NCBI RefSeq assembly: GCF_004010195.1
Contig: NC_057718.1
Location: forward strand, 69,354,851-69,405,394
Origin: Chiloscyllium plagiosum
Taxonomy: Eukaryota
Direction of reading: 5' to 3'
DNA length: 50,544 bases
The notes beneath the pieces were generated by a model, which saw nothing but the letters and a program-made list of their open reading frames with translations, was not told the DNA's origin and ran no database searches. Positions 598 through 49,027 of the stretch are shown one piece after another (position 1 is the first letter of the stretch; each line of letters begins with the position of its first letter). A program made the translations under genes and the position numbers.

Positions 598-819
598 AGA
601 AAGTGAGGACTGCAGATGCTAGAGATCTGAGTCTAGGGGGTGGTGCTGGAAAAGCACAGCTTGTCAGGCAGTATCCGACGAGCAGGAGAGTCCATGTTTT
701 GGGCATAAGTACTTCATCAGAAATGCCATTCTTGCTGAAGGTCTTATGCTCAAATATTGACTCTCCTGCTCCTCAGATGCTGCCTGCCTTGCTCTGCCTT
801 TCCAGCACCCCACATTTCG
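598..819. mobile_element. PLE family A non-autonomous fold-back element with two decayed head-to-head hammerhead motifs
   Basis: Inverted arms meet at cttcatcagaaatg-c-cattcttgctgaag (about 727). TSD acaat(t/a)aagcaagg at 584-597 and 820-833. Same family as 15061, 32287 and 46237. Confidence 0.8.
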
Positions 820-849
820 ACAATAAAGCAAGGTTAGGTTAGTGAAATT

Positions 850-2300
850 GAGAAATAATTGAAATTAGTGATGTAAGACACTAACAAAGAAAAAATATTT
901 GATATAATGGAACAACATTTGGAATGTGAAGAGGAAAACATTATCCTGAATAAATGGCAGATTGAATCGGCTACCATTCAATTGCAGATGAAGTGCTTTG
1001 AATTAAAAACAACAGATACAGAAAGGTGACATGTAATAAGAGACAGAGCTGCACAGAAAGAAGCTGGATAGTATGAACTAGAAAAAAGACTTCATTTATG
1101 TGATGAAGGAAGAACTGATGCTTTGAACAATGGAAATTCAACTTCGATTTGTAAAGGATGTTAGCCTGGTGTCGAAATTACTGAAGATGATGGGTAGAAT
1201 AATACTTCATTTCATTTGAGAAAGCTGCCAAAATGTAATGGTGGTTCAAGGAGATATGATTTTGTGAAATGCTTTGAGTAAAGGAATGAATGTTTATTCT
1301 AGGCTTTAGGAAGAACAACCTTTTGTAATTGTGAGAAAGATGACATTGTGATACTTATCACAGATGATATGGCTCCTGAAGTGAGTCAATTAAAATTTTA
1401 AACTGCAGACAAACAAAGATGCTTACATCAGATTTTTTTTGTGGAATATTTTGCAAAACTGCTGTTATTATTCAATGAAATTAAGTGCAACTTTAGAAAA
1501 TGTGAAGGGCAAGATAATCGTAGAAGAAATTAGGAACAGAACTCTCATTTGAAGGTTGGGAAAGTTTCTAAAATGGTGGTGGCTTTAGAAGATGATTGTA
1601 ATAACTCTCATAAAAAGCTAGGAAGAACAAATCTCCATTTATGAATCCTCAAAAAAGATGAGATAATTGGAAAAAGAATATAAGGGATTAATTGAGTAGC
1701 TGAAGTTGTAGTTACCGTAATTCAAAAGGTTGTGTTATTTTGTTTCCACTTCTGTAAGTTTTCTACGATCCTGTTTGTGAAGGTGATGGGAAATGCTTTT
1801 TAGCAGCCAGAGTGATGCACACCAATTAACAATTAGATCATTTTTAAGCCAATGTATTTGCCTTTAGAACTCTATATAAGTACATCTTAGTGAGAGTGTC
1901 TTCCGGATTCTAGAAACTACGCTGGGAAAAACTGAGTGAAAGAGACAGAGATATCAAGGTTTGAATTTCCAACCTGCATGTTTATAATAATGAGTTTTTG
2001 ATGTAAACCATTTCCTGACTCCAAGTGTGGTATTTATCTCAGATCACTATTCTAAGCAATGTGGATGATAATATCAAAGATTTTTTTAAAAATCTGTTTC
2101 CATTGCAGTGAGAGGGATGATTCAAGTGAATTGTTGGGTGTCTCAGGTATCTTCTGAAAAGACTGTCTATCAGTAAAAGAAATGAGCAATAGTATGAACC
2201 TGTATGATGAACTCAATTGCTCAAGTATTTGAGTAATTGCTCAAAATAGTCAGAAAGATTCTTCCTTAGGTACTGAGAAAGTGAGTCAGCTTATTGAAGG
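850..2300 (+). pseudogene. Highly decayed Gmr1-like Gypsy gag(-protease) relic
   Basis: Remnant peptides FVKDVSLVSK and YFISFEKAAK (about 1148-1232) and MAPEVSQLKF resemble Gmr1-type gag (VRLVPKF...YFxxFEKxA...LVPEAYRQKF). Many stops and frameshifts. Confidence 0.5.
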
Positions 2301-2309
2301 TTAGTAAAA

Positions 2310-4995
2310 CCATAAAATGTAAGAGAAGCAGACATTTCATCTAATAATCTTCAACTCCACTTACTTGCTCTTTTTTCATAACTCTTGATTTCCTTATGAA
2401 AAGTTTATTTGTGTCAACTCTGAATTTACTTAACAACCCAGCCTTGACAGCTCTCTGTGGTGAAGAATTCATTATGATCCCTTATTCTGAGATTATGCAC
2501 TTTGGCTCTGGATGCTACCATAAGGGGATCTTTTCCACATCTACTCTGTCAAGTCCATTAACATTCTTGTCCAGGATGTTTCAATAAGGTTTTCTAAATT
2601 CCAAAGAATGCAGGCCCAACCTACTCAACTTCTCTTCATAAGACAATTCCTAATAGTGAATGTTCCCTGGATGGTCTTGAGTGTCAGCGTAATTTCCTTT
2701 TAGATAAGGGTCCCAAAATTGTTCATAGTATTCAAGTGTGGTCTGATTAGTGCTTTGCATACTTCTAGGAAAGCCTCCCTACTTTTGTGCTCCATTCCCT
2801 TGAAATAAAGGCCAACATTCCATTTGCTTTCCTATTAGTTGTTGAACATAAATACTAGCTTTTTGTGACTCACAGTTGGGGACTCCCAAATTCCTCTGTT
2901 CTGCTTTCTGAAGTCTTTCTTCATTTAAATAATGTTCAGCTCCTGTATTCTTTCTGTCAAAATGCATGACCCCGCATTTCCCACAATGTATTTCCTAAGT
3001 CAAGCTTATGCCCGTTCATTTAACATGTCTGTATCCCTCTACAGGGTCTTTGTGTCATCCTCAAACTTGGCTATAGTACATCTAGATGAGATTCCCTCCA
3101 GTATGGAAACAGGCCCCTTGGCACAACAAGTCCACACTGACCCTCCAAAGAGAAACCCACCCAGACCCATCCCCTCCTTTATTCCTGACTATGGGCAATT
3201 TAGCATGGCCAACTCACCTGACCTGCGCATCTTTTGTACTGTGGGAGAAAACTGGAGCACTCAGAGGAAACCCAGGCAGACATGGGGAGAATGTGCAAAT
3301 TCCACAGAGACAGTCACCCGAAGCTGGAATCAAACCCGGGCCCCTGGCGCTGTGAGGCAGCAGTGCTAACCACACCATACCACCCCCTCATTTACTTGCT
3401 TCTTTAGTCATTAATATATATTGTAAATAATTGTGACCCCAGCACTAATTCCTGTCCTACTCCATTAGCCACAGGTTGCCATTTTGAAAATGTTTCTGAT
3501 CCCAATTGTCTTCTATTGGTCAGCCAAATCCTTTAGCCTTACCAACATATTACTTCATATACAATGGATTTTTTTTTAGTGTAATGTGTGCAACCGAACT
3601 TTAGCCCCATTAGTTTCTTTAATTTTTTCTCAAGTGATTTGTTGTTGTATTTGTTCCCTCTCCTCCTTTTGCCTTCTGATTATTTATTTAGTAATTTTAG
3701 AATGCTATTATTGTTTTCTACTGTGAAGACTGATGAAAAGTATTTATTAAACTCCACTGCCATTTTTTTGGTTCCCCATTATTGTTTACCTTTTTACACT
3801 TTTAAAGAAGATCTTACTGTCCTTCTTGACGTTAACTTGCAAATTAACCCTCATAGTTTACTTACTCCCCTTTTTTGGTTATCTTTTAAAAATGTTCTCA
3901 ATCCTCTTGTGTACGACTAATATTTGCCACATAGTATGTTTTTGTTTCAATTTTATACTAGACTTAATTTATTTTGTTAACCATGGTTGGCATGCCACAT
4001 TCCTAAAATCATCCTCCTTCACTGGGAGGTATCTTTGCTTATGAGCAGTGAACTATTTTGTGTTTGCCATTGTTCCTCAACAGTCTTTGCTAAACTTCTT
4101 TTGCAATCTGCATGATCTCAATTCTGCAAAATTACCCATATTTTGACTGAGCCCTGTTGTTTATGGCCCAAGTTCCTCCCTTTCAAACTGAATATTAAAT
4201 TTTACCATGCTATGATCACTGTTTACTAGGGGATTTTTTTATTCTGACATCATTTATTAAACTTGCCTCATTACCAGATCAAAAATTGCCTGACTGGATC
4301 CACTACATGTTGTCATACCACTGTTCTGAATAAACCCTATGAATTCTTCCTCATGGCTTTCTCTACCAATCTTACTACCCTAATCTCAATTAAGGTCAAA
4401 GTCTTGATTAATGTACTGCCTTTGTTATATGCCCTCATTATCTCCTGAGTTATTCTGTCTCACCATATAGATACAGCTGCTCCTACTAGTGTCATTTTTC
4501 CCCTTTTTACTACTTTCCTCTAACTATATGGTGTCTGTGTCTTTCAATCCAAGATCTTTCCTTGCTTTCGTACTTGGTGCAGGATGGAACCAATATTTTC
4601 TCATAATCCATTCCTTTATGCTTGTCCTTTTGGAAAGCCACATACCCTAAATATTTATTTCCTAACTTTGATATCCTTGAAATCATGTCTCCATAACGGC
4701 TATAAGATCAAACCTGTTGATGGCAGAAAAAGAAGTGAATTCATTTATTTTGTGCTGAATACCATATTCAAGGAAGGAGCAATCAAATTTTGCCTTTTAC
4801 AACTTTTTTTCTTCGTTTTGACCCTATTTGACTGCTATTTTTCCGTGTTTGTATACTCTGTCCTTTCCTGGCCCAGTGTGAGTATTGTTATTCAAACAGC
4901 TGCCCTTTAAATGCTGCCATATCTCCATGATTTTTATTTCCCCTCTTCCCAAACCCTCCGCACTCTAATCATTTTAAAGCCTTATCTACAGCTCT
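2310..4995 (-). mobile_element. Old CR1 LINE (ORF2 remnant), interrupted by a SINE
   Basis: Minus ORF 2779-2967 (HF...YLNEERLQ..QRNLGV) matches the CR1 ORF2 C-terminus, and CR1-like sequence continues to an ORF1-end-like region at about 4990. Confidence 0.7.
3085..3385 (-). mobile_element. HE1-like V-SINE
   Basis: tRNA-like head (GTGGTTAGCACTGCTGCCTCACAGCGCCAGGG...GGGTTTGATTCC), V-domain (GTGGAATTTGCACATTCTCCCC...) and LINE-like 3' tail. Confidence 0.9.
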
Positions 4996-10800: not shown

Positions 10801-10880
10801 GCAATGTAAGTTTGTCAGTTTACATGCAGTTTCAGCATTTTTATAGTTTGTGCATCATATGGATTTATGTTTTTTTTAAA

Positions 10881-11148
10881 TTTAAAAATCTCACAACACC
10901 ATTTTATAGTCCAACAGGTTTATTTGGAAGCACTAGCTTTCGAGGCACTACGCTTCATCAGGTGGTTGTGGAACATGACCATATGACACAAAATTTACAG
11001 CAAAAGTGTCATGGAGTTGTAATGATATATTAAACAACTTTAGTTAAAAATCACACAACACCAGGTTATAGTTCTTAAACAAATTTAGATTAAGTCTTTC
11101 AATGTTTAGGATGGGATATGGTGGTTTAGGTTCTTTAATATTTAAGAA
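10881..11148 (-). mobile_element. PLE family B terminal fragment with hammerhead motif (10931-10964, stem II disrupted)
   Basis: Reverse complement reads CAC-CTGATGA-agcgtagtgcctc-GAAA-GC-TA-GTG; homologous to the arms at 24423 and 28694. Confidence 0.8.
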
Positions 11149-11152
11149 TTTA

Positions 11153-11804: not shown

Positions 11805-11895
11805 ATTACCCGATGAAGGAGCGACGCTCTGAAAGCTAGTGTGCTTCCAATTAAACCTGTTGGACTATAACCTGGTGTTGTGTGATTTTTAACTA
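11805..11895 (+). mobile_element. PLE family B terminal fragment starting at its hammerhead (core mutated to CCGATGA)
   Basis: tacccgatgaaggagcgacgctctgaaagctagtgtgcttcc...gtgtgatttttaact. Confidence 0.8.
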
Positions 11896-12490: not shown

Positions 12491-13195
12491 ATTCGACGTT
12501 TCGGGCATAAGCCCATCACCAGAAATGTTGAGGGGGGAAGGAGGCTGAGAGATAAATAAGGGGATGGAGATGGGGTGGCTGGAAAGTGATAGGTAGATGC
12601 AGGTGGGGGCTGATGGTAATAGGTCATTCGGGAGGGTGGAGCGGATCGGTGGGAAGGAAGGTGGACAGGTAGGACAGATCAAGAGGGCAGTGCCAAGTTG
12701 AAGGATTGGATCTGGGTTGATGTGGGGTGAGGGGAGATGAGGAAACTACCGAAGTCAATGTTGGAAAGTCTGAAGGCAGAAGATGAGGCGTTCTTCCTCC
12801 TGGTGTCAATTGGCTTAGAATTGGCGGTGGAGGCAGCCAACGTCCTTGTTGGAGTGGGAGGGGGAGCTGAAGTGGTAGGGCACAGGACACAGGCACAGGT
12901 TGTTTAGTGTGTCTGTCCCAGAGATATTCTCTGAAACATGTGAGTTGGCGTCCTGTCTCCCCAATGTCAAGGAGACCACATCGAGAACACCAGACACAGT
13001 AGATGAGGTATTTGGACGTGAAGGAAAATCTCTACTGGATGTGGATGGATCCTTTGGGCCTTGGACAGAGGTGAAAGGGTAGATGTGGGCACAGGTTTTA
13101 TACCTCTTGTGGCAGCAAGGGTAGGTGCTAGGAGTGGAGGGTGGTTTGGTGGGGAGTATGGATCTAACGAGGAAGTCACGGAGAGATTTCTCCAT
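12491..13195 (-). mobile_element. Penelope-like element (family A, Neptune-like): GIY-YIG endonuclease remnant, 3' region and hammerhead at 12490-12527
   Basis: KSLRDFLVRSILP...YPCCHKRYKTCAHI (Cys linker), then a frameshifted HLIYCV..YIGETGRQL GIY-YIG motif. Reverse complement reads cattt-CTGGTGA-t-gggc-ttat-gccc-GAAA-CG-TC-gaatg. Confidence 0.85.
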
Positions 13196-15060
13196 TGTAC
13201 AAATTAGTCCAGTTGAGGTCTCATCAGTGCTCAGTGTAACTGGAGCATAACATTTCTACTTCTGCATCTAATTCCCATTGTGATAAATGATAACAATCTA
13301 TTAGCTTTCTTAATTACTTGCTGTACCTGCATTTTAAATATTTTGTAATCCATGCACTAGGACTCCCACATCTCTCTGCATCTCAGAGCTCTGCAATCTT
13401 CTATCCTTTAGTATGCATTTTTATTCTTAGTATTGAAATTGACACTTTCACATTTTTTACACATTATAGTCAGTCTGTCACATTTTTGCATACCAACTTA
13501 ACCTATCTTTATCTTTTGACAACAGAAATTGCTGAGAAGACAGACCCTGAGTGATCTCTGCTGATTTGCGATTTTTCTGAATTCCCCTCTTTTGTTTCTT
13601 GATTTATCTCTGCTTCTGGAACATTACTTCCATCCACTGTAGTGAAGAGAGATGCTAAACGGCTGTTCAATTAATGTGCTATGTTCTTCATTTCCATTAA
13701 TGATTCACCAAACCCATTTCTATACGACTAATGCTCACTTTATTAACTCTGTTCTTTAGATAATTATATAAACTGGCTATCTGTTTTTATACTTCTGGCT
13801 TGTTCTCTCAAAATCAAATTTGTCCCTCCTTATTAATTTTTTTGTCATATTTTGCAGGTTATTTTTGCTACTATCTAATGTTGCCTTTGCACAGTTAAAT
13901 GCTTTTTCTTTAAGTTTGATTATTATCTGTAACATTTCTAGTTAATCACAAATGGTGTGTTACCATTTGAAATGTTTCTTATTAATTGGAATATATCTAC
14001 TTTCCACATTCTGAAATTTCCCCTGAAATATAACTGCATTTCTACTACTGATTGAAGGCACTGTCTTAGACTATAGATTTTTTTTTGCATGTGGTAAGAC
14101 TCAAATGTGCATGTGTGTAAATTCTGTCATTACCCCGATGCATAGGTGCATTCAAATTGGGGGAAGGCCAACTATAGCAAAATTTGACAGGAGCTGGGGA
14201 ATGTAGATTGGGAGCAGCTGTTTGGAGGCAAATCCACATTGAAATGTGGGGGTGTTAAAGGGAGGTTGATTAGAGTGCAGGAGAGACATGACCTTGTGAA
14301 GAAGAAGGATAGAAATGGCAAGATTAGGGAGTCACATGGTGAACAGATGAAATTGAGATTAGCTAAGCGAAAAATGGATGCGTACGTAAGGTCTAGGCAA
14401 CTGAAAACAGATGAAGCTTTGGAAGAATATTGGGAAAGCAGGACCAAACTGAAGTGAGAAATTAAGAGGGCTAGAAGGGGTCATGAAATATCTTAAGCAA
14501 ATAGGGTTAAGGAAAATCCCAAAGCCTTTTATTCGTATATAAGGAGCAAGAGGGTAATGAGGAAAGGGTTATCCCACTCAAGGACAAAGGAGGAAAGATA
14601 TGCGTGGAGTCAGAGAAAATGGATGAGATTCTTAATGAGTACTTTCGGTCGATATTGACCAAAGAGAGGAACATGACAAATGTTGAAGTTAGGTCAAGTC
14701 AGTATAAGGAGGAAGGAAGTGTTGTGAATTCTAAAAGGCATTAAGATGGACAAGTTCCCAGGTCTGGATAGGATCTATCCCAGGTTACTGAGGGAAGCGA
14801 GAGAGGAAAGAGCTGGGGCCTTAACAGATACCTTTGCAGCATCCTTGAACATGGGTGAGGTCCCGGAGGATTGGAGAATTGCTAATGTTGTTCCCTTGTT
14901 AAAGAAGGGTAGCAGGAATAATCCAGGTAATTATAGACCGATGAATCCAATGTCAGTGGTAGGGAAGTTGCTGGAGAAGATACTGAGCGATTGATTGATT
15001 GATGAGTAAAGGGCTGTAGATGTCATATGCATGGACTTTAGTAAGGCATTTGATAAGTTC

Positions 15061-15186
15061 CTGAAGAAGGGCTAATGCCCGAAACGTCGATTCTCCTGTT
15101 CCCTAGATGCTGCCTGACCTGCTGCGCTTTTCCAGCAACACATTTCCATCTCTGATCTCCAGCATCTGCAGACCTCACTTTCTCCT
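15061..15186 (+). mobile_element. PLE family A 126-bp monomer beginning exactly at the hammerhead core
   Basis: CTGAAGA-a-gggc-taat-gccc-GAAA-CG-TC-gatt; TSD catttgataagttc at 15047-15060 and 15187-15200, inside the CR1 DFSKAFDK motif. Confidence 0.9.
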
Positions 15187-15795
15187 CATTTGATAAGTTC
15201 CCCATGGTAGGCTGATGGAGAAAGTGAAGTTGCATGGGGTCCAGGATATACTAGCCAGATGGATAGAGAACTGGCTGGGCAGCAGGACATAGTAATAGTG
15301 GAAGGGAGTTTCTCAAAATAGAGAATTGTGCCCAGAGGTGTTCCACGGGGATCTAGTGCTGGGATCACTACTGTTTATGATATACATAAATGATGTGGAG
15401 AAATGATTTGGAGGTGCCGGTGTTGGACCAACCTAGCTCCCTGAAAGCCTGTCTAACATCCTCAGCACTCCTCCTACCTATGTCGTTGGTGCCAATGTGG
15501 ACCACGACTTGTGTTCCACGGGGATCTAATGCTGGGATCACTACTGTTTGTGGTATACATAAATGATGTGGAGAAATGATTTGGAGGTGCCGGTGTTGGA
15601 CTGGGGTGTACAAAGTTAAAACTCACACAACACCAGGTTATAGCCCAACAGGTTTATTTGGAAGCACTAGCTTTTTGAGCGCTGCTCCTTCAACAGGTGG
15701 CTGTGGAGTATAAGATCGTAAGACACAGAATTTATAGCAAAAGTTTAGTGTGATGCAACTGAAAGGACATATCGAAAAATACCTGTATTCTTTAA

Positions 15796-16108
15796 GATTA
15801 GATTAGATTACAGTGTAGAAACAGGCCCTTCGGCCCAACAAGTCCACACCGACCCGCCGAAGCGAAACCCACCCATACCCCTACATTTACCCTTTACGTA
15901 ACACTACGGGCAATTTAGTATGGCCAATTCACCTGACCCTGCACATCTTTGTGATGTGGGAGGAAACCGGAGCACCCGGAGGAAACCCACGCAGACACGG
16001 GGAGAACGTGCAAACTCCACACAGTCAGTCGCCTGAGGCGGGAATTGAACCCGGGTCTCTGGCGCTGTGAGGCAGCAGTGCTAACCACTGTGCCACCGTG
16101 CCGCCCAC
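15796..16108 (-). mobile_element. Young HE1-like V-SINE nested in the PLE arm
   Basis: Near-consensus sequence with CpGs retained and a (tagat)n tail. Confidence 0.95.
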
Positions 16109-16435
16109 AAACAGATGAAATTGAGATTAGCTAAGCGAAAAATGGATGCGTACGTCTCTCATCTTTTAGAATGACCCTGTTGGTTTCAGTTCTTTCATAT
16201 GTAAATCCCAGAACCTTTTTTTAAAAGTTACATTCTCAAGTGAACTTTAACAATAGGTGCATGTCAGCTCAGAATGTGCAATGAATGTGTGAGGTTAAAG
16301 TCTGTCTGCCTGTGTCCCAATGTTCAAACTGATTCTATTTTTAAAAAAGGGATTGACAGAATCTTACATAGATTCATGCAGTTTTTGAGCAAAATAAAAT
16401 GTAATTCTGGAACTACAAATTCACCCCACAAACTT

Positions 16436-16910
16436 TGGAAAGATGTTGTGAAACTTAAAAGGGTTCAGAAAAGATTTACAAGGATGTTGCCAGGGTTGGA
16501 GGATTTGAGCTATGGGGAGAGGCTGAACTGACTGGGACTGTTTTCCCTGGAGCGTCGGAGGCTGAGGTGTGACCTTATAGAGGTTTACAAAATTATGAGG
16601 GGTGGGGATAGGATAAATAGGCAAAGTCTTTTCCCTGGGGTCGGATAGTCCAGAACTAGAGGGCATAGGTTTAGGGTGAGTTGGGAAAGATATAAAAGAG
16701 GCAATTTAGCATGGCCAATACACCTGACCTGCACATCTTTGGACTGTGGGAGGAAACCGGAGCACCCGGAGGAAACCCACGCAGACGCGGGGAGAACGTG
16801 CAACCTCCACACAGTCAGTCGCCTGAGGCGGGAATTGAACCCAGGTCTCTGGCGCTGTGAGGCAGCAGTGCTAACCACTGTGCCACCGTGCCGCCACATC
16901 TCTATGACTT
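16436..16910. mobile_element. CR1 3' fragment (+) with a partial V-SINE (-, 16700-16897), nested in the PLE arm
   Basis: KDVVKLKRVQKRFTRMLPGLEDLSYGERLN, then SINE head and V-domain, then a ctctatgact tail. Confidence 0.88.
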
Positions 16911-19461
16911 GTGCGTGTATGCAAGTGGGTGGGTGTGTGTGTCTGTGACAGTGTGTTTGTGTGTGAGTGTAAAGGAGTATAAGTCTGTGAGATGGTGCAT
17001 GTGTGGGTATGACTGTGGGTGGGGGATATGTATGTGTGTGTGTGTATATGAGAGAGGGTCTGCGTGAGTGTATGGGTCTGTAGGAGTGTCTGTGTGTGCG
17101 AGAGAGAGTGTGTAGTGCAGTGGGGTCACCTGTAGTGAGATATGAACCCAATGTCCCGGTTGAGGCCATTCTTATGGGTACTGAACTTGACCGAGCAGAG
17201 GCTAGTAGCCACATGTTGTTGCCTGTCCCAAACTCCGCCTTGGAGGATGGTCACACGAAGATTTGAGGCCAAATGTCCCTGACTGGGAGGGAACACGCCT
17301 GCCTGGAGATTGTTGTGCAGTGTCCATTCATCCGTTGTCGTAGCCTCTGCTCGGTCTCACCAACATACCATGCCTCGGCTTCCTTGCCTGCAGTGTATGA
17401 GATGGACGACATTGGCCGAGGCATATGAGTACCTGCTGCGTATGTGGTGGGTGGTGTCACCACGGGTAATGGTGGTATCCGTGTCCACACTCTGACACGT
17501 CTTGCAGTGACTGCTGTGACAGGGTTGTATGGTGTTGTTCTGAAAGCCAGGCACTTTGCTGTGAACAATGGTCTGTTTGACGTTTGGTGTTGTCTAGAGG
17601 TGAGAAGTGGAGGCGTGGAGAAGGGCTTGGCGAGGTGCTTATCCTCATCAATAATGTGTTGTAGGCTGCGAAGAACATGGCGTAGTTTCTCTGCTTCTGG
17701 GAAGTACTGGATAACGAAGAGTACCTTGCAGGCAAGGATGCCCTGAGGCATGGTACATTGGCAAGACCTAGCAGAGGCTATGGCAACGGATGAATGGACA
17801 CTGCGCAACAATCACCAGGCAGGGGAACACTATAGTGGTCCGGGACATTCGGCCTCAGACCTTTGGGTGCCTATCCTCCAAAGTGGACTTTGGGACAGGC
17901 AACAACTCTAGGTGGCTGAGCAGACACTGATAGCCAAGTTTGGTACCCATGGGGATGGCCTCAATCAGGACCTTGGATTCATGTCATATGCAGGTGACCC
18001 GATTGCACTATACACACAAGCACATGCACACACACTCCTACAGATCCATACACTCACGCAGACGCTTTCTCATACACAAACTCTCTTGCATATGCGCACA
18101 TGTATACACTCACACCCGCACATGCACCCTCTCAGACTTCTACCCCTTTACACTCACACACAAACACATACGCACACTCTCTCACAGACACTCACTCTCA
18201 CCCACCCAACCCCCGCCTCTCACACACACACCCACATGCATACACAAGTTTGTGGGGTGAATTTGTAGTTGCAGAATTACATTTTATTTTGCTCAAAAAC
18301 TGCATGAATCCATGTAGGATCCTGTAAATCCCTTTTTTAGAAATAGAATCAGTCTGAACACTGGGGCACAGACAGACGGACTTTAACCTCACACCTTCAT
18401 TGCATAATCTGAGCTGACATGGGACCTATTGTTAAAGTTCACTTGAGAATGTAACTTTTAAAAAAAAGTTCTGGGATTTACATATGAAAGAACTGAAACC
18501 AACAGGGTCATTCTAAAAGATGAGAGACTTAAAGAACTCAGGTCTTTTTCAATACATCCTTTCAGTTGCATCACACTAAACTTTTGCTATAAATTTTGTG
18601 TCTTAAGATATTAAACTTTACAAAATCTAATGCTTCCAAATAACCCTGTTGGGCTATAACCTGGGATGTGGAGAAAGGTATAGGTGTTCTGATTAGCAAG
18701 TTTGCAGCTGAAGCTAAGATTGGTGGAGCAGTAGATAGTGAAGGGGACTGTCAGAAAATGCAACAAAAAATATATAGATTGAAGAGTTGAGTGGAGAAAT
18801 AGCAGATGGAGTTTAATCCGGGCAAATGTGAGGTGATGTATTTTGGAAGATTCAATTCAAGAGCGAACTACATGATAAATGGAAAAGCCCTGTGGAAAAC
18901 TGATGTACTGAGAGACTGGATGTTCAGATCCATTGTATCCTGAAGGGGACAACACAGGTCAATAGAGTTGTCAAGAAGGCACACGGCATGCTTTCCTTTA
19001 TTGGATGAGGTATTGAGTACAACAGTAGGCAGGTCATGTTGCAATTGTATAGAACTTTGGTTCAGCCACATTTAGAATGTTCTGGTCGTCTCATTACCAA
19101 AAGGATGTGGCTACTTTGAGGAGGGTGCAGAGGAGGTTCACCAGGGATGTTGCCTGGTATGGATGGTCCTAGATACGAAGACAGCTTGAGTAGATTATGA
19201 TTATTTTCATTAGAAATACAGAGGTGGTGGTGGGGGGGGGGGGGGGGGGGGAGGCAGCCAGAGATCTATAAAATCATGAGAGGTATAGATAGGGTGGATA
19301 GTAAGAAGCGTTTTCCCCCAGAGTGGGGTTCTCAATTACTAGGGACCATGAGTTCAAGGTGAGAGGGGAAAAGTTTAAGGAAGATATGCATGGAAGGTTC
19401 TTTACGCAGAAGGTGGTGGGTGCCTGGATCAAATTGCCAGCGGAGGGGGGCATGATAGCAT

Positions 19462-22478: not shown

Positions 22479-22479
22479 T

Positions 22480-22632: not shown

Positions 22633-24480
22633 GTATTGCATACTTTTCAACACCATGCATGTGTGATTTGCCATTGGCATTGCACATGGGCAGAATGGAA
22701 CAAGTGGAAATTCTATTAAAAGACAGACTGCAACACATGTTCAGAACTTTAAAACCCACTTTTTTGTGCATGTTTAATAATCTTTTTTCTTTTCAATGTG
22801 GAGAAAGAAGTGCAGGCAAATAAGATAAGAGTTAATGGGATTGAAAGTTCATAAATCCCCGAGATGATGATTGACATTCCTTTTTTTTGTAAAGCGATGT
22901 CTATAGAGATAATGGATATGTTGGTGATCTTCATTCAAATTTGATTGATTTTGGACACTGCCTGCAAATACAACCATGAGGTTGGATGGAGAAAATGGGG
23001 AACTATAGACTTGTTAGCCTGATATGTGTAATAGGCAAAACACTAGAACCTACTAAAGAATGTGATAACTGGACATACCATCTGATTGGGCAAAGCAGCA
23101 CAGATTTCTGTTCTGATGGAGAAATCATGTTTGACAAACATTTTAGAGCTTTTTGAGGATGTTACTAGCAGATTAGGTAAGGAGGAACCAGTGGATATGG
23201 TGATTTAGATTTTCAGAAAGGTTTCAGTAAGGTCCCACAAAGGTGGTTAGTAAACAAAATGAGAGCACATTGTCAGCAAATAACTGACATTGATTGAGGG
23301 TTGGTTAATAGACAAAAAAGCGAGTAGGGATAAATTGTCCATTCTCAAGCTGGCAAGCTCTGACTCATACTGTGCTGCAAGGATTCATGCTCAGACCCCA
23401 GCTGTTCATGATCTGTGTCCATGATTTCCATGTCTGGGCCAAACATAACATTTCAAAGTTTGCAGATGACACAAACCTAGATGGGAATGTGTGTTGTAAG
23501 GATCATGCACAAAGTTTTATGAGTTTTGGATAGGTTGAGTGAGTGGATAAGGACATGGCAAATGGACTAGCATGTGGATAAATGTGAGGTCATCCACTTT
23601 GCTTGGAGAATGGCTTATTACTCAAGTAGTGAGAAATTGGAAGTATGCCCATAAGGACCCAGATGTCTTAAAACATCATTGAAAAATAATATGCAGATGC
23701 AGCCAGCAATTAGAAAGGAAATGATACACTGGACCTTATTGCAAGGGGGGTTGAGTACAGGAACAAAGACATCTTGTTGATGCATTTTCAAATTGCCTGT
23801 AAGGATCAGTGATTTGTTTTGAACTATTACAAAATATTAATGATATGAATAAAGCAAAAAGCACTGAGCCTAACATTGCTAACAATATAAAGGTCAGAGG
23901 CATTTGTAAACTGAGTAGCTGACACAAAAAGGTGACCAAGTGCTATATTGTCCTGTTAGGCACTCACTCACTAACGATTATATTGGTTCACCAAGGCAAC
24001 ACTGTGTCGCTGGTCATCTGTTCTGTGTGTTCTTGTGTAGCTGATGAGCCCAATCCTAGAGCTACATCTCCAAACGCACATTTGGCAGGTGCTTCTGGGA
24101 AATGGAATTGGTCCTTGGCTATATGTAGGACAAGTGAATGAACAACTTGGCAGTAAATATAATGTGTGGGTGTTTAAGGTTATTTGTTCTAACAGTAAGA
24201 ACAGAAACAGAGAGGTTTTTAAAAAGACAAGACACTTTGTAAATGCTGATGTTCATATATTCAAAGCTGAGATAGACAGATGCTTGATTTCCACCATCAA
24301 TTTGATCACAAAGTTAGCATGCATATACAGCAAGCAAGTAGGAAATCAAATTTCATGATGGCCATTGTTGCAAAGGCAGTGGATTATAAGATATTGCTAC
24401 TCAAGAGACTACACCTGGAGTGTACAAAGTTAAAAATCACACAACATCAGATTATAGTCCAACGGGTTTAATCGGAAGCA

Positions 24481-24515
24481 CACTAGCTTTCGGAGCGCCG
24501 CTCCTTCGTCAGGTG
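24481..24515 (-). ncRNA. Minimal type I hammerhead ribozyme, intact core
   Basis: Reverse complement reads CAC-CTGACGA-a-GGAGC-ggc-GCTCC-GAAA-GC-TA^GTG; stems I and II pair and the AGCT palindrome forms stem III. Confidence 0.8.
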
Positions 24516-25306
24516 ATTGTGGAGGACACAATTCTAAGGCACAGAATTTATAACACACACACTAAACACACACACAGGCACTCCTATACATACGGACACA
24601 CATATGCACAGATACGCACACAGACACTCACACTAACCCTTACAGACACACACACACCCACATTCACACAGGCATCCTCTCAGAGACTTAGACCACTCTA
24701 CACTCATGCACACAAATATACACTCTCTCTCACAGACACTCACAACCCCCCAACCCAAACACACACACACACACATGCACCCCCTCACAGACACTTAAGA
24801 CACTACACTCATTACACACACATATACACTCTCTCTCACACTCAACTCCCAACCCAGATAGACACACACACACAGACAGACAAAGACCCACATGCACACA
24901 CATTTTGTGGGGTGAATTTGTACTTGCAGAGTTATATTGTACTTTGCTCAAAAACTGCATGAATTCAGGTAAACCTCTGAGCTCAAAAACTGCATGAATT
25001 CATGTAAAACTCTGTTATCTCACTTTTTAGATTAGAATCAATCTAAACATCATGGCATAAACAGAGAACGCAGAGGGCTAACACCTTCAACATATTGTCT
25101 AGCTAACACCCATTGTTACAGCTAACCTGAGAATGCAACTTTTTAAAAAAAGGTTTGGTGATTTACACATGAAAGAAGTGAAACTATCATGGTATTTGAA
25201 CAGATGAAAGACTCAACAGACAATCAAGGTATTTGTCGATGTATAATTTCAGTTACATCACACTGTAAATTTTTGCTATAAATTCTGTGCTTTAGTCCTC
25301 CACAAT

Positions 25307-25341
25307 CATCTGATGAAGGAGCGTCGCTCCGAAAGCTAATG
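25307..25341 (+). ncRNA. Minimal type I hammerhead ribozyme, intact core
   Basis: CAT-CTGATGA-a-GGAGC-gtc-GCTCC-GAAA-GC-TA^ATG. Confidence 0.8.
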
Positions 25342-26663
25342 TGCTTCCAATTAAACCTGTTGGACTGTAACCTGGTGTTGTGTGATTTTTAACTTTGTAC
25401 ACCCCAGTCCAACACTGGCATCTCCAAATCACACCTGGAGTGCAATGTTGACCTCCTTGCTTAAGGAAGGATATATTAGCTTTAGTGGTGGTACAGCAAA
25501 GGTCCACTACATTTGTCCCTGGGACAAGACGTTTGTTCTATGATGAAATGTAGAGTAAACTGGATCTTTTCTGTCTGGAGTTGAATAAGAAATGGTTTCA
25601 CTGCAATAAACATGTACTGAAGGGACTTGACAGGATAGACACTGATGAGTTTCTCCTGGTTCAGAAGCTAGAATAATACAGGCACAGTATAGTCTGGATA
25701 TGGTGTTAACTACTAAAACTAAGATGAGCAGAAATTGCTTCATTTCAAATATTGTTAGTTCTCCAGGCAGTTGCAGATGCTCCATCATTGCATATATTTA
25801 AGGCTGAGATAGACAGATGCCTGATTTCCACCATCAGTAAGAGATATTGGAAATGGATGGAAAAGTGGAGTTGAGACAGAAGATCACTCATGACTGTATG
25901 GAATGGTGGAGTAACCTGAAGGCCACTCTTGCTCTTAGTTTTTTTTTGAACAAAAAAAAAGTATCTCTAATTAAGGAAATACAGCCCTAAAGATCTTTCC
26001 AAGGCAACTTTTAAAAAAAAAAGCTTTGTCCACATTTCACCCCCCCCCCCAAACTATATTTCAGATGTAAATACTTCATCACAAATGTAGGTTGGCCTAG
26101 GGGTAACACTGAGGATTTATTATTGATTTGGTAGCATTATCACCTATGCAATAAGCTTCACAATAACAGTTAAGTGGACAGGATTGATCTAAAATGTCTT
26201 TCTTCCACTTACTAACGTTACTAATGTCATATTCTCATGTCCAAATAAATTGAATTGTAGCCTAAGAGAAAACAAATGAAACCTTTATTAAAGACAAGTT
26301 TTTTGCAAGAATGAACAAGATGCAAAAATACAAATTGAGTCTGAACATTAATTCAGCTTGAGGCTGACATTAATGCTTCCAAAGTCTGCCTGTGCTTGTC
26401 CCAACTAGGACAACAGCAAGGTCAATTCATTAAAACATTTCAGTGGTGTTCACCGAATGAGATTCTGGAAGTGGCATGAGGCAGGGTTGCAAAATGCAAA
26501 TGCAATTTTGCAAAAAAGCAGTGAAGCTTATTGATGCCGATATATTGTTTTTCTCTCTACACTGGCTCCAATTTGTTGTGGAAGCCTGAAAACAATCACA
26601 GTGGTGTTATGATGGAAGAGGCTGCTTGAACGGAAGAATTCTTCTCCCTCAATAAGCCTTATA

Positions 26664-28693: not shown

Positions 28694-29714
28694 ATTAAAA
28701 ATCACACATCAGGTTAAAATCCAACAGGTTTATTTGGAAGCACTAGCTTTTGGAGTGCTGCTCCTTCATCAGGTGGCTGTGGAGTATCAGATCGTAAGAC
28801 ACAATTTCATAGCTAAAGTTTACAGTGTGATGTAGCTGAAACTACATATTGAAAAAGACCTGGATTGTTTAAGTCTCATCTTTTAGAATAACCATGTCGG
28901 TTTCAGTTCTTTCATATGTAAATTACAGAACATTTACAAGTTACATTATCAAGTGAACTTTAACAAATGGTGTCATGTCGGCCCAGATAATACATTGAAG
29001 GTGCGAACTGCCCTGTGTGAGACTGTCTGTGCCACAATAGTCAGACTGATTCTAATCTTAAAAAATGGATTTACAAAATTCTACATGGGTTCATGAAGTT
29101 TTTGAGCAAAGTAAAATGTAATTCTGCAAGTACAAATTCACCCCACAAACTTATTTGTGTGTGTATATATAGTGCAATGGGGTCATCTGTAGTGTGACAT
29201 GAACCCAAGGCCATCCCCTCAATTTGCACTTGCTGAATTACATTTTACATTGCTCAAGAACTGCATGAATCCATGTAAGATTCTGTAAATCCATTTCTTT
29301 CAGATTAGAATCAGTCTGACTATTGTGGCACAGATAGTCTCTCACAGGGTAGCTCACACCTTCAATGTATTTTCTGGGCCAACATGACACCAATTGTTAA
29401 AGTTCACTTGAGAATGTAACTTTAAAAAAGTTCTGCGATTTACATATGAAAGAACTGAAACCAACATGGTCAGTCTAAAACATGAGAGATTTAACAAACA
29501 ATCCAGGTCTTTTTCAATATATAATTTCAATTATATCACACTGTAAACTTTTGCTATAAATTCTGTGTCTTACAATCTTATTCTTATTTTTCACAATCAC
29601 TTGATGGAGCAGCATACCAAAAGCTAGTACTTCCAAATAAATCAGTTGGACTATAACCAGGTATTGTGTGTTTTTTTACCTTTGGACACCCCAGTCCAAC
29701 ACAACTCCAAATCA
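28694..29714 (+). mobile_element. PLE family B fold-back element, about 450-bp inverted arms, hammerheads decayed
   Basis: Arms at about 28694-29140 and 29221-29680; TSD aaagttccttg at 28683-28693 and 29715-29725. Confidence 0.88.
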
Positions 29715-32190: not shown

Positions 32191-32286
32191 CTCCAACCCT
32201 CAATTATATATGTGCCTGTAATTTCTTCAACTTTGACAATTCTTTTAATGTGCTTTCAATTTTGTTGATCATGACTGCATTTCAGT

Positions 32287-32498
32287 GTCAAAACGTGTGG
32301 TGCTGGAGAAGCACACTCAGGCAGCATCCGAGGAGCAGGACAGTCGACGTTTCAATTATAAGCTCTTTGTGAAGAGCTTATACTTGAAAGGTTGACTCTC
32401 CTGCTCTTCAGATGCTGCCTGACTGACTGTGCTTTTCAGCATCACACTTTTTTTTGACTCTGATCTCTAGCATCTGCAGTCCTCACTTTCTGCTTCAA
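32287..32498 (+). mobile_element. PLE family A fold-back element
   Basis: Inverted arms folding at aagctctt-tgtg-aagagctt; TSD gactgcatttcagt at 32273-32286 and 32499-32512. Confidence 0.88.
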
Positions 32499-35299: not shown

Positions 35300-35420
35300 T
35301 TCAAAAACCAAAATTGTTGGAAAAATTCAGCAGGTCTGGCAGCATCTATAGGAAGAAAGCAGAGTTAAGGCTTTGAGTCCAGTGACTCTATCAGAACTGA
35401 CAGCAGCTAGAAAAATTGGT
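35300..35420 (-). mobile_element. Decayed PLE-type terminal fragment (family D, related to A) with eroded hammerhead
   Basis: Reverse complement ttctgatagagtcactggactcaaagccttaactctg; similar to 44270-44326. Confidence 0.5.
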
Positions 35421-38795: not shown

Positions 38796-38869
38796 CTCCT
38801 CCTGTGGATTCAGGAGGTGACTGGTTTCACTTTTCCTTCCTAGATCCAGCGAAACTTTCTGAACAACCT

Positions 38870-43191: not shown

Positions 43192-43335
<144 letters not shown>

Positions 43336-44130: not shown

Positions 44131-44269
44131 AAATGAAATATAGCTCTCTTTTAAATATGCAAGACTGTTTTGTCATTCAACCACTCTATCAGAGACCCCC
44201 CACTTTTGTTATGTCTCTATCCTTTCCCATTTCACCTGCTTAAAACTTTTGCAATTTTAATTATTCCCA

Positions 44270-44326
44270 ATTCTGATGAGAAGTCATTGATCTGAAAAGT
44301 TAACACACACTCTCTCTCTCCACAGA
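44270..44326 (+). mobile_element. PLE family D terminal fragment with hammerhead-like core
   Basis: att-CTGATGA-gaagtcattgatct-GAAA-agttaac...ctctctccacagat. Confidence 0.5.
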
Positions 44327-46578
44327 TCCAAAGAGATTTGACAAATACATTAAGAGCAAGAGGCTAACTAACGAGAGGGTAGACCTCTTAAAGATCAAGG
44401 AGGTTGTCTTTGCGTTGAACCTTAGGAAATGGGAGAGATACTAAATGAATATCTCACATTGTTTTTACTGTGGAGAAAGAAATGTAGGGAAATAAACTTT
44501 GATGTTTTAAAAACAGTTCACATTACAGAAAAGGAACATCAGGAGGAACTTAGTGTGGAAACAGGCCCTTCAGCCCAATAAGTCCTCACCGACCCTCCGA
44601 AGAGCAACCCACCCAGACCCATTCCCTTACATTTACCCCTTCACCTAACACAATGGGCAATTTAGCATGGCCAATTTGCCTAACCTGCACATCTTGGGAC
44701 TGTGGGAGGAAACCGGAGCACCTGGAAGAAACCCACGCAGACAATGTGCAAACTCTACACAGACAGTTGCCCGAGGTGGGAATTGAACCCAGGTCCCTGG
44801 CACTGTGAGGCAGCAGTGCTAAGCACTGTGCCACCGTGCCGCCCATAGAGATGGATAAATCTCCAGGACCTGATCTAATGTATCCCAAAATGTTGTGTGA
44901 AGTAAGGGAGGAAATTGCAAGACCTTTTGCAGAAATATTTGTATCATGTATAACTACAGGTGGGGTGTCTGATGACTGGAGGGTGGCTAATGTTTTACAT
45001 TTGTTTCAGAAAGGTTGTAAGGAGAAACCAGGGAACTATGGACCTGTGAGTCTGACTTCGGTTGTAGGTAAGTTGTTGGAGGTAATTATAAAAGATAGGA
45101 TTTATGGACATTTGGAAAGGCAAAAATTGATTAGGGATAGTCAGCATGGCTTTGTACAAGGAAAATCATGTCTCACAAACCTGTTTGAGTTTTTTGAGAG
45201 AGTTACCAAAGAGATTGATGATGGCAGAGCAGTCGACATTGTTTACTTTAGTAAAGCATTCAACAAGGATGTGTGTGGTAGACTAATTAGTAAAGTTACA
45301 TCACATGAGATTCAGGGTGAATTTGCCAATTGAATATATAATTGGTTTAATGGCAGGAGACAGAGAGTGGTGGTGGAGGATTGCTCTTCAGACTGGTGGC
45401 CTGTGGCCAGTGATGTTCTACAGGCATTGGTTCTGGGTTCTATTTTGTTTGTCATTTATAAATGATTTGAATGAGAATATGGGAGGCATGGTTAGTAAAC
45501 TTGTGGACGACACCAAAATTGGTGACACAGTAGACAGTGAAGAAGGGATCTTGTTCAAATGGGTCAAAGAGTTGAAATGGAGTTCAATCCAAGGTATTGC
45601 ATTTTGGTACAACAAAGCAGGGTAGGGCTTATACACTTAATGAGAGAGCCCTGGATAGAACAGAGGGACCTAGGGCTGCAGTTACATAATTCTTTGAAGT
45701 TTATGTCACGTTTAGACAGGGTGGTTAAAAATGTGTTTATCACGCTTGCCTTCATTGCTCAGTTCTTTGAGTAAAGGAGTTGGGAAGTGAGGTTGCATGG
45801 GACATTGGTGAGACCTCTTCTGGGATTCTGTGTCCAGTTCTGGTCACCCACTTATAGGAAGGACATTATCAAGTTGGAGAGGGTCCAGAAGCGATTTATT
45901 GAGGTGTTGCTGGGTATGGAAGGTTTGAGTTCTTAAAAAAAAGGTGGATCGACTGGGACATATTTTCACTGGAGAGTGCGAGGTTGAGAGGAGACCGTAT
46001 AGAAGTTTATAAAATAATGAGGGGTATAGATAATGGTTAATGTGGTTAATGGTAGTTGTCTTCCCCCTAGGATGGGGGATTTCAAGACTAGGGGGCATAT
46101 TTTTAAGGTGAAACTGAGAGAGATTTAAAAGCATCATGAGGGGCAAATCTTTTACACAGAGGGTGGTTCACGTATGGAATCAATTTCCTGAGGAAGTGAT
46201 AGATGGGGGTACAATACAATGTTTAAAAAATATTTGTTGAAGCTTTATTGCTGGAACAGCACAGCAGGTCAGGCAGCATCCAGGGAACAGGAGATTCGAC
46301 GTTTCGGGCACAGGCCCTTCTTCAGGCCTGTGCCCGAAACGTCGAATCTCCTGTTCCCTGGATGCTGCCTGACCTGCTGTGCTGTTCCAGCAATAAAGTT
46401 TCAACTTTGATCTCCAGCAACTGCAGACCTCACTTTCTCCTTAAAAAATATTTGGATAAGTACATGAACAGGAAAGGTTTGGAGGGATATGGGCTAGACA
46501 CAGGCAGGAGGGGACAAGTTTAGTTTGGGATTATGGTCAACATGGACTGGTTGGACTGAGGGGTCTGCTTCCATGCTC
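44327..46578 (+). mobile_element. CR1 ORF2 fragment with a nested V-SINE (-, about 44552-44845) and a PLE palindrome
   Basis: DKSPGPDLMYPK, PGNYGPVSLTSVVGK, SQHGFVQGKSCLTN, KLVDDTK. Confidence 0.92.
46237..46440 (+). mobile_element. PLE family A near-perfect palindrome (81-bp arms, 8-nt spacer)
   Basis: 46236-46316 versus 46325-46405 differ at one position; TSD ttaaaaaatatttg at 46223-46236 and 46441-46454. Confidence 0.93.
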
Positions 46579-47429: not shown

Positions 47430-48084
47430 CTGAAAAGTGAAAAACTTGAAGACTTGCAAAAAGTGAGCAAAGAAAAGTAATCCATCCTTTACTGTTCTTG
47501 TATATGTTTCAAGGTGCAAAACTGGCATGGTAACAATAGAACACGATTCGAAATTCTCCACAGAAATCTATATTGTGAAATTTTGTTATATGCAATCATG
47601 TGCAAACCAACAGAGGAACTGGCTAAATGTGGATTCTCTACCCTTTTTGTAACATTATTTTAGTATCACTTACAAGCAGGCTAAGACTTTTGATCCAATC
47701 TTGCTCATCCATCTATTCCCCTCTGCACTTCTAAGAACCACGGGCCAGATTTTTCAGGTAATGGCAATTGCGAGTAGACTGCCACTCTGGACTTCCTTTT
47801 TCTTCATATAAGAAAGGAGCTCCACATTCTGGAAAGGTGATTCTGTTCAGGTCTCCCTCAAATGTGGAGCCGTACTTCTAATCTGACAGTTCTTGCATAG
47901 TGTGGAACTGTCAGGGGAAAGTAGACCACACCCATGTTTCACAGCAGTTACCTGCCATATTCTGAAATTATATGCCCAACAGCCACTTTGATAGCTGTTG
48001 TCAAAGGACAAGTATATAAGGTAAGTGTGGGCAGGCTTTAATGGTGTAGTACCTCTAATCCAAAAAGCCTGGCTTCAAGAGTCT

Positions 48085-48905
48085 ACTGATGACCATAAAA
48101 TCATTGTCAATTATCAGAAAAACCCATCTGGTTCACTAATGTTGCTCAGGGAAGGAAATCTGCTATTCTTACCTGATCTGACCTTCAAGTGACTCCAGAC
48201 CCAATAGCAATGTGGTTGGCACTCAATACTCCTCTGAAATAGCCTAGCAAGCCAATCAGTTGTACCAATTGTGAACAAGTCTCAAAGAGGTGAAACTGGA
48301 CGGATCACCTGACATCGACCTAGGTATCAGAAAAGGCAATGGCAGAAACAGCCCTGTTGACCCTGCAAAGACCTCCGTACTAACATCTGGAGGCCAGTAC
48401 CAAAATTGGGATAGCTGTTTCACAGACTAATCAAACAACAGCCTGACATAGTCATGCACGGGGAATCCTACTTCACAGACAATGCCCCAGACACCACCAT
48501 TACCATCCCCCACTACCATCCCTCAATACGTCTTGTCACAATGACAGGATAGACCCCGCAGAGGTGGTGGCACAGTTAGGAAGGCGGGGCTCTAGGAATC
48601 CTCAACATTGACTCTGAGCCTCATGAAGTGTCATGGCTTCAAGTTAAACATAGGCAAGGAACGTTCTGCTGATTACCACATACCATCCTTCCTTAGCTGA
48701 TGAATCAGCACTCCTCTATGTTGAACAATATTTAGAGGAAACACTGAGGATGGCAAGGGCACAAAATGTACTCTGGGTGGGAAATTTCAATGTCCATCAC
48801 CAAGAGTGGCTTGGCGGCAGTACTACTGATTGAGCTGGTCATGTTCTGAAGGACATAGCTGCTAGATTGCGTCTGTAGCAGGTGGTGAGGGACCAACAAG
48901 AATGA
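48085..48905 (+). mobile_element. Non-CR1 LINE 5' region with APE endonuclease remnant
   Basis: HRLIKQQPDIV..ESYFTDNAPDTTITIP, QDRPRRGGGT, SEPHEVSWLQVK, QNVLWVGNFNVHHQEWLG. Confidence 0.8.
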
Positions 48906-48987
48906 AAAACATTCAGAGTTTGAGAGAAGATTTGTAGCTTGGGTGCTCGTTGTTGTGGTTCTGTTCGCCGAGCTGGGAATTTGTGTT

Positions 48988-49027
48988 GCAGACGTTTCGT
49001 CCCCTGTCTAGGTGACATCCTCAGTGC
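48988..49027 (-). ncRNA. Minimal type I hammerhead ribozyme, intact core (family C)
   Basis: Reverse complement reads GCA-CTGAGGA-t-GTCaCCT-agac-AGGgGAC-GAAA-CG-TC^TGC. Confidence 0.8.

What the first reader, a model, noticed from the sequence alone, without database searches (positions are those of the whole stretch)
598..49027. Dense population of minimal hammerhead ribozymes from three or four distinct Penelope-like families
Seen: about 15 hammerhead-shaped motifs in 50 kb, in distinct sequence families sharing one architecture (short stem I, CUGANGA, stem II, GAAA, palindromic ACGU or AGCU stem III, NUH site). Family A: 15061, 12491, 46294-46326, about 700-760 and about 32345-32400. Family B: 24481, 25307, 10931, 11807, 15665, 28741. 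Family C: 48988. Possible family D: 44270, 35360. Families A, B and C are each physically linked to a different GIY-YIG remnant in this window. Established: PLEs carry minimal type I hammerheads in their pseudo-LTRs, and these are thought to cleave as dimers. Inference: at this density the genome would hold a very large, probably unannotated ribozyme repertoire spread largely by short non-coding derivatives.
Basis: partly seen in the sequence, partly recalled or inferred. Interest (0 to 1): 0.8.

Follow-up and report, generated by a model that had tools for sequence, protein, structure and literature searches.

The report
Shark Penelope retroelement hammerhead stubs
The window holds 19 end-pieces of Penelope-like jumping genes that carry a small hammerhead (self-cutting RNA) motif of a known type; over 138,000 such motifs lie in this shark-like genome, most are broken or lack a partner, and the short copies likely record where the element's capped RNA begins.

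Summary
The motifs are real and of a known kind. The window has 19 hammerhead-derived ends from four families of Penelope-like elements: A and B Neptune-type, C Poseidon-type, D an A-like family whose ORF was not examined. Only 5 pass a strict fold test, an ordinary density here (3.3 expected). One core pattern matches 138,187 times genome-wide against 529 for the reversed control. This is about 9 times denser than the published axolotl count. Subfamily variants spare the catalytic core, but single copies decay. Of 79 intact motifs in a 1.2-Mb sample, none has an intact same-strand partner within 4 kb, so this is mostly not an active ribozyme repertoire. Half of family A copies end 24-38 nt upstream of the cut site, at the ribozyme's 5' edge, not at the cut. 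A non-parental G precedes that edge (2,351 G against 804 A; background 0.64) and is absent one base further out; family B shows it too. This likely marks a capped RNA start. Short copies would then be run-off cDNAs of uncleaved RNA, not separate SINEs. No cleavage is shown. The scan noted these stubs and their clustered ends before, elsewhere in this genome.

The parts
588..824 (.). Family A head-to-head pair (588-725 minus, 728-824 plus); both hammerheads decayed
10878..11037 (-). Family B end; core intact at 10961, stem II damaged
11805..11894 (+). Short family B copy; core changed (CCGAUGA)
12493..13192 (-). Family A 3' fragment: Cys linker and GIY-YIG endonuclease remnant (about 12839-13192), then hammerhead with changed core (CUGGUGA at 12522), tail missing
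15058..15186 (+). Young 129-nt family A copy: intact hammerhead (core 15061, predicted cut after 15088) plus long tail; 15-bp target duplication (15047-15061, 15187-15201) that overlaps the first 4 bases of the element
15574..18670 (.). Old family B insertion: minus arm 15574-17728 with endonuclease remnant (17132-17727), interrupted by other repeats, and inverted plus arm 17722-18670; both hammerheads broken
24415..25430 (.). Family B inverted insertion; intact hammerheads at 24512 (minus) and 25310 (plus), on opposite strands; 12-bp target duplication
28695..29714 (.). Older family B inverted insertion; both hammerheads broken (28772 minus, about 29600 plus)
32283..32491 (.). Family A palindrome; both arms lack CUGANGA; 14-bp target duplication
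35311..35399 (-). Decayed family D copy (GUU site, tail related to A)
44266..44320 (+). Decayed family D copy; core letters present at 44273, stems broken
46243..46439 (.). Young family A palindrome: minus arm with intact core (46325) but 1-bp stem I, plus arm starting inside stem II; predicted near-perfect hairpin (-165 kcal/mol); 14-bp target duplication
48913..50408 (-). Family C (Poseidon-type) 3' fragment: RT thumb and GIY-YIG remnant, interrupted by another repeat at about 49990-50310; intact hammerhead at 49024 (predicted cut after 48991)

Best explanation
These are end-pieces of endonuclease-bearing Penelope-like retrotransposons (Neptune-type A and B, A-like D, Poseidon-type C), each carrying the minimal type I hammerhead of its terminal repeat; the short A and B copies are likely run-off cDNAs that stop at the capped start of uncleaved element RNA. 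Shown: element architecture, two fixed 3' ends, a sharp 5' edge 4 nt (A) or 8 nt (B) before CUGA, a G excess at that edge, and a core spared by subfamily variants. Inferred steps: (1) a promoter in the terminal repeat starts a capped RNA at an initiator-like A just before the hammerhead; (2) the element protein primes reverse transcription about 63 or 98 nt (family A) past the cut site, by analogy with the anole element PAc; (3) priming on the 5' repeat runs off the RNA end after about 95-130 nt, adding a C opposite the cap, while priming on the 3' repeat gives longer copies with ORF remnants; (4) the cDNA end either anneals to the target or folds back or switches template, giving palindromes. 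The ribozyme would be under selection only in active master elements, where two same-strand copies or the bound protein could let it cut. Inserted copies would be dead ends that decay neutrally.
For: L115 is a near-complete B element with same-strand hammerheads 3,438 bp apart around an RT ORF. Motifs: B has GTAMG and RYIDD in its RT and a CX2-5CxxC linker in its closest complete relatives; A has RYIDD and the linker; C has TPMGSP and YVDD and no linker. Tail-anchored A copies (138 of 246 tail hits kept: score >=45, full flank): 70 end at -24 to -38, 19 nearer, 11 at -39 to -99, 38 run >=100 nt. Per-base stopping rate is 5.5% at the edge against 0.6% and 0.4% on either side; for B it is 7.1% against 0.8% and 0.8% (n=32). 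Only 3 of 138 end within 2 nt of the cut site. Of 100 young core-intact A copies, 66 end at -28 to -38, 1 at -39 to -62, and 33 continue (counted by eye). G before A(-32): 2,351 YG against 804 YA genome-wide, background ratio 0.64. One base further out: 24 G in 100 listed (by eye). In 40 such G loci, 10 are explained by element sequence and 30 are not (script classes corrected by eye); the corrected excess is 3.4-fold. Family B: 94 G in 100 listed, and 17 G against 2 A in contexts an inverted arm cannot supply. An untemplated 5' G is the accepted cap mark for L1 and SVA (PMC4859970, passages). For PAc, internal priming, uncleaved template and protein-assisted cleavage were shown in vitro (PMC11167929).
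Against: No start site was mapped directly. The one informative RNA run showed no pile-up of molecule starts anywhere and read both strands, as expected of passenger transcription. The edge is a 15-nt band, not one base. Many junctions at -26 to -31 fit fold-back on short self-complementary words, and 33 of the 70 edge-ending A copies are inverted-junction arms. In 6 of the 40 G loci the G is part of the target duplication. A reverse transcriptase that adds C at any RNA end would give a G without a cap. Family C shows no edge within 50 nt (0 of 20). In D. virilis Penelope an intron begins 46 nt after the start (PMC2377424, passages) and ends at helix I (PMC4209133), a different layout. No full-length A element was recovered, so its promoter and ORF start are unseen. 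Cleavage activity is untested.
Confidence: 0.7

Rival explanations
1. Short copies are SINE-like non-autonomous families: short masters with an internal promoter are transcribed from their first base and moved by the Penelope protein.
For: It predicts the same 5' edge and cap G. 89 of 138 A copies are short and non-coding. 13 of 34 short non-inverted young copies have a flanking direct repeat of 8 nt or more. Non-autonomous pLTR derivatives are reported in Xenopus (bioRxiv 2026.07.22.740005).
Against: Five of the six common loop II subfamilies occur as both short and long copies; none is short-only. Junction sequences are all different in 40 loci. No tandem arrays of the unit lie in the window.
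Confidence: 0.15
2. The edge is made at the DNA level or by RNA structure: the RT stalls after the folded hammerhead, the cDNA folds back on stem I-like words, or the endonuclease cuts at the ATT that lies at -32 in family A.
For: Microhomology is evident at many junctions. PAc endonuclease prefers ATT (PMC11167929). Self-priming was proposed for rotifer Penelope palindromes (PMC3846280, passages).
Against: It does not predict a G excess at one position only. Family B has the edge and the G at ACAA, not ATT. 37 of 88 non-inverted A copies also end at the edge.
Confidence: 0.12
3. The dispersed copies are a working ribozyme repertoire that cuts host transcripts, in trans dimers or with a helper protein.
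For: Roughly 190,000-230,000 strict motifs. Family A sequence is present in polyA RNA on both strands (1,396 reads). The ACGU palindrome pairs between two A molecules in a cofold model. Rare changes are somewhat fewer in the A core (1.8% against 4.1%, p=0.03).
Against: 0 of 79 strict motifs have an intact same-strand same-family partner within 4 kb, 19 of 79 have an opposite-strand one. Rare core changes match flanks in C (5.3% against 5.7%) and do not differ significantly in B. No read starts pile up at the cut site. Published monomers do not cut and dimers cut weakly (PMC4209133); 8 of 9 Xenopus dimers did not cut (bioRxiv 2026.07.22.740005).
Confidence: 0.05

Closest known systems
Minimal hammerheads (min-HHR) of metazoan Penelope-like elements (Cervera and de la Pena 2014, PMC4209133; parts 1-2 of 4 read)
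   Same: Type I core, unpaired base before stem II, G10.1-C11.1, palindromic 15.2-16.2, several families per genome, mostly solo copies, opposite-strand pairs; reported in Neptune, Poseidon and Xena of fishes.
   Different: Host is a shark. At least 138,187 exact cores against about 4,000 (coelacanth) and 9,000 (Xenopus) there, with a different descriptor. Stem II is only 4-5 bp in A, B and D. The 5' edge and G excess are not in the parts read.
Neptune and Penelope/Poseidon clades of EN+ PLEs (Craig et al. 2021, PMC8557442; passages)
   Same: RT then C-terminal GIY-YIG; CX2-5CxxC linker in A and B relatives and absent in C; 5' truncation, adjacent inverted copy, optional 30-40 bp tail.
   Different: Clade assignment here rests on motifs, not on a tree with named references. 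No uninterrupted ORF was found.
PAc, Poseidon of Anolis (Frangieh et al. 2024, PMC11167929; parts 1-2 of 4 read)
   Same: Two internal priming sites about 35 nt apart give two 3' ends; uncleaved RNA is the template; no RNA ends seen at the cut site.
   Different: Their ORF starts in stem II. In B the first long-ORF ATG candidate lies about 95 nt past the cut site. They do not report a start site or run-off copies in the parts read.
Non-LTR retrozymes (PMC7229834, passages; bioRxiv 2026.07.22.740005, parts 1-3 of 5)
   Same: Type I hammerheads at high copy number (126,247 in axolotl); derivation from pLTRs proposed; one chondrichthyan was sampled.
   Different: Retrozymes are head-to-tail arrays of 170-400 nt units. 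These copies are dispersed, solo or head-to-head.

Membership tests
PLE minimal type I hammerhead | CUGANGA ... GAAA ... NUH core with stems I and II | tested here: met
   5 strict in window, 79 in 1.157 Mb, 0 in reversed control
PLE minimal type I hammerhead | One unpaired base before stem II, G10.1-C11.1 pair, palindromic zero-loop stem III | tested here: met
   Pair 1 is G-C or G-U in 79 of 79; pair 4, not required by the filter, is canonical in 73 of 79 with six pair types; ACGU and AGCU
PLE minimal type I hammerhead | Located in the terminal repeats flanking a PLE ORF | tested here: met
   L115 has both repeats; A and C follow endonuclease remnants; D not examined
PLE minimal type I hammerhead | Core conserved across lineages | tested here: met
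   0 shared variants in the 11 core columns of A (34 copies), B (10; no CpG column) and C (17; except 3 CpG-type changes at G12), against 1-21% of non-CpG flank cells; cells are not independent
PLE minimal type I hammerhead | Self-cleavage as dimer or with protein | not testable with these tools
   No assay; one RNA run showed no ends at the site
Neptune clade (A, B) | CX2-5CxxC linker between RT and GIY-YIG | tested here: met
   A pieces L052, L112; B relatives P0001, P0006; frameshifted in the B copies seen
Penelope/Poseidon clade (C) | C-terminal GIY-YIG without the CX2-5CxxC linker | tested here: met
   L085 piece
Neptune / Poseidon clades | Placement in an RT tree with named members | not tested
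   No named reference set was held; homologues are 'uncharacterized'
Non-LTR retrozyme | Head-to-tail tandem units each with a hammerhead | tested here: not met
   No such array in window; 0 of 79 strict with same-strand intact partner; one 151-bp tandem pair of B seen in L092
SINE-like non-autonomous family | Own lineage of short masters | tested here: inconclusive
   No short-only loop subfamily among 65 copies; no tree built

The most novel reading that the evidence does not exclude
Neptune elements start their capped RNA at the very edge of the hammerhead, and hundreds of thousands of shark insertions are fossil 'strong-stop' cDNAs bearing the cap-derived G. The 5' hammerhead would then sit where a cut removes the cap with about 32-37 nt, making it a switch between translatable RNA and a cap-less, possibly circularisable unit. 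The genome itself would show that cut RNA is rarely the integrated template.
Probability: 0.45. Interest if true: 0.6.

Novelty: new member of a known kind. Interest (0 to 1): 0.36.

Why it matters
What the PLE hammerhead does in vivo is open. This genome offers a very large natural data set: copies span the cut site intact and stop at a likely capped start beside the ribozyme. That supports, from genomic data, the in vitro result that cleavage is not needed for insertion, and it gives exact start positions to test. The count may be the highest hammerhead density yet noted in an animal (38.9 per Mb or more, against about 4.5 for axolotl), but it is a count of mostly dead transposon ends.

Tried and rejected
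Rfam: no hammerhead model hit, only hairpin-type miRNA matches below threshold, caused by the palindromes. Pfam on 18 window frames: no GIY-YIG hit; one LINE-type RT hit; a DUF3791 match below cut-off ignored. Four family C loci chosen for long open frames held no whole ORF: three frames were inflated by N gaps and the fourth was not the element's frame. The first breakpoint run with 14 fixed references misread a few diverged-subfamily copies as short, so I redid it with 41 references; the all-versus-all version in turn misplaces a few inverted arms. A pile-up at the cut site, which would mark cleaved templates, was not found. No RNA holder was listed by index. Run X20 laid no reads and is no test; contigs of X1 show presence only. 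Monomer folds give stem II, and stem I only in B and C; cofolds pair ACGU in A but prefer other pairings in B and C, so they are weak evidence. A hammerhead cut making the -32 end was considered and dropped: the triplet before it is NUH only in some A subfamilies and not in B. The paper by Lunse et al. on dimer cleavage was not held; I know it only from a review's text and reference list. The host gene context of the window was not examined.

Full report
Host and setting. The window lies in a 3.56-Gb animal genome. The closest named proteins to a family B ORF piece are uncharacterized shark proteins at 76-89% identity with RT and related Pfam domains, so the host is most likely a shark.

Observation. 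Every cited place holds a hammerhead-derived element end. I count 19: A 8, D 2, B 8, C 1. Five pass a strict descriptor (core, stem II of 3 bp or more, 15.2-16.2 pair, stem I of 1 bp or more): 15061, 46325, 24512, 25310 and 49024. Two more keep the core letters with damaged stems; twelve have lost or changed core letters. Twelve of the 19 belong to six head-to-head insertions, and four insertions show 12-15 bp target duplications. One copy each of A, B and C adjoins an endonuclease remnant. Rfam finds no hammerhead here.

Abundance. The pattern CTGANGA-N(9-24)-GAAACGTC occurs 138,187 times, the reversed control 529 times. Tighter or other patterns give 49,986 young A, 20,127 B and 3,329 mostly D (control 20). 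In 120 fixed-position 10-kb stretches (1.157 Mb non-N) there are 79 strict motifs (A 54, B 16, C 7, D 1, other 1), against 0 reversed and 0-1 per shuffle, and 327 tail matches (A 246, B 56, C 25; reversed control 0; a few are partial). Scaling gives about 234,000 strict motifs (185,000-292,000) and about 0.97 million ends. The sample runs about 20% above the genome-wide rate for the pattern, so about 195,000 and 0.8 million are safer. The window is ordinary for this genome (P=0.24). Published counts are about 4,000 for coelacanth and 9,000 for Xenopus (PMC4209133, other descriptor) and 126,247 for axolotl (PMC7229834).

Parent elements. L115 is a near-complete B element: two same-strand hammerheads 3,438 bp apart around a 544-codon RT stretch with GTAMG and RYIDN (RYIDD in L116 and L118). 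A pieces carry RYIDD, a CX2-5CxxC linker and a GIY-YIG-type motif; C has TPMGSP, YVDD and no linker. By the criteria in PMC8557442 (passages), A and B are Neptune-type and C is Poseidon-type; no tree was built. D shares A's tail and has a GUU site; its ORF was not examined. The endonuclease or thumb pieces drew 106,233 (A), 24,272 (B) and 50,524 (C) first-look candidates, which are not copy numbers.

Selection on the motif. In long, non-inverted copies, variants shared by several copies avoid the catalytic columns: 0 in the non-CpG core columns of A (34 copies), C (17) and B (10), against 1-21% of non-CpG flank cells. Such cells are inherited together, so the nominal p values are inflated. Rare changes hit the core about as often as the flanks in C and B, and less often in A (1.8% against 4.1%, p=0.03, with some bias because alignments had to cross the core). 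All 11 core letters survive in 25 of 34 A, 9 of 17 C and 6 of 10 B. Stem II differs among families and stays paired: pair 4, not filtered, is canonical in 73 of 79. This fits selection in active masters and neutral decay after insertion.

Can inserted copies cut? Published metazoan minimal hammerheads do not cut as monomers and cut weakly as dimers (PMC4209133); PAc cuts only with its protein (PMC11167929). Here 0 of 79 strict motifs have an intact same-family partner on the same strand within 4 kb of the 10-kb stretch, while 19 have one on the opposite strand. Among all A tails, 110 of 246 have an opposite-strand tail within 500 bp and 28 a same-strand one, mostly decayed or partial. The palindrome at 46243-46402 is predicted to be a near-perfect hairpin on either strand. 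In polyA run X19, 1,396 reads lay on a family A stretch from both strands with no pile-up of starts or ends; 102 reads leave the element at position -32, mirroring the genomic junctions. That run is a weak test of cleavage.

Where copies end. Anchoring on the tail avoids selecting for the core. Of 138 A copies kept, 70 end 24-38 nt upstream of the predicted cut, 19 nearer, 11 at 39-99 and 38 beyond 100; only 3 end within 2 nt of the cut. The stopping rate per base is about ten times higher in that band, also for non-inverted copies (37 of 88) and for B (14 of 32 at -29 to -38). C has no such edge (0 of 20 under 50 nt). The commonest A end is the A four bases before CUGA, and in B a preferred end is the A eight bases before it; both sit in initiator-like contexts (consensus recalled, not from a call). 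A has two 3' ends, about +63 and +98, as in the tail model of PMC11167929.

The G signature. At the A edge a G stands where the parent has a pyrimidine: 2,351 YG against 804 YA genome-wide, with a background ratio of 0.64. One base further out only 24 of 100 listed have G. Among the first 40 unexamined-or-new listed G loci that I fetched, 8 have an inverted arm that supplies the G, 1 is a tandem jump and 1 a point change. In the other 30 the G is untemplated or, in 6, shared with the target duplication. The corrected excess is 3.4-fold. For B, 94 of 100 listed have G; most contexts could come from an inverted arm, but in those that cannot it is 17 G to 2 A. For L1 and SVA such a G is read as reverse transcription of the cap (PMC4859970). 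Penelope promoters lie in the terminal repeat (PMC2377424, PMC3846280, PMC6765202; passages).

Mechanism and verdict. Most likely the short copies are run-off cDNAs primed in the 5' repeat of capped, uncleaved RNA, then joined to the target or folded back (0.7). Rivals are short SINE-like masters (0.15), structure- or nuclease-made ends (0.12) and a working dispersed ribozyme set (0.05). The hammerhead-PLE link, solo copies and inverted pairs are already published. Searches for shark with Penelope and hammerhead terms found no paper on these elements, and two searches on start sites and truncation listed none reporting the edge or the G; the library lacks most subscription papers. Earlier notes of this scan on the same genome describe the stubs and the clustered ends; I had reached that reading before looking, and they are not independent support. 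Verdict: real, a new member of a known kind, with a record-like density and one testable mechanistic clue.

Noticed in passing
window 25307-25341 (+): Stem I of this B copy differs from its relatives on both sides (C-G replaced by U-A) and still pairs; a single case, may be chance.
   Followed up: no
L092 2543 and 2694 (+) (G000:C1:92.91 Mb): Two intact family B hammerheads in tandem 151 bp apart on the same strand; a natural dimer candidate for assay.
   Followed up: no
G000:C1:4662538-4662600 (-); L212: Chimeric junctions between family A and family B ends, suggesting template switching or nested insertion between families.
   Followed up: no
L040, L067, L096-L098, L174: Further C-like hammerhead subfamilies with 6-7 bp stem II, not present intact in the window.
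   Followed up: partly
window 3092-3390, 11156-11473, 15804-16105, 16681-16895, 26672-26979, 34001-34338, 38512-38802, 44544-44843, 50003-50302: A dispersed SINE-like family of about 300 bp, several copies inserted into Penelope remnants; resembles the shark HE1 SINE (recalled).
   Followed up: no
window 19564-22534, 38844-39572, 44809-46234 and others: Many decayed LINE-type RT fragments (RVT_1 hit at 38844-39572).
   Followed up: no
L032 6469-9998 (+): Fragments of another retroelement with a zinc-knuckle-like ORF, an endonuclease-like ORF and an RT, with a family A copy inserted.
   Followed up: no
L115 about 1890-1935 and window 25370-25410: The B tail holds a pyrimidine-rich run ending in CAG just before the candidate ATG, resembling a splice acceptor; no intron was tested.
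   Followed up: no
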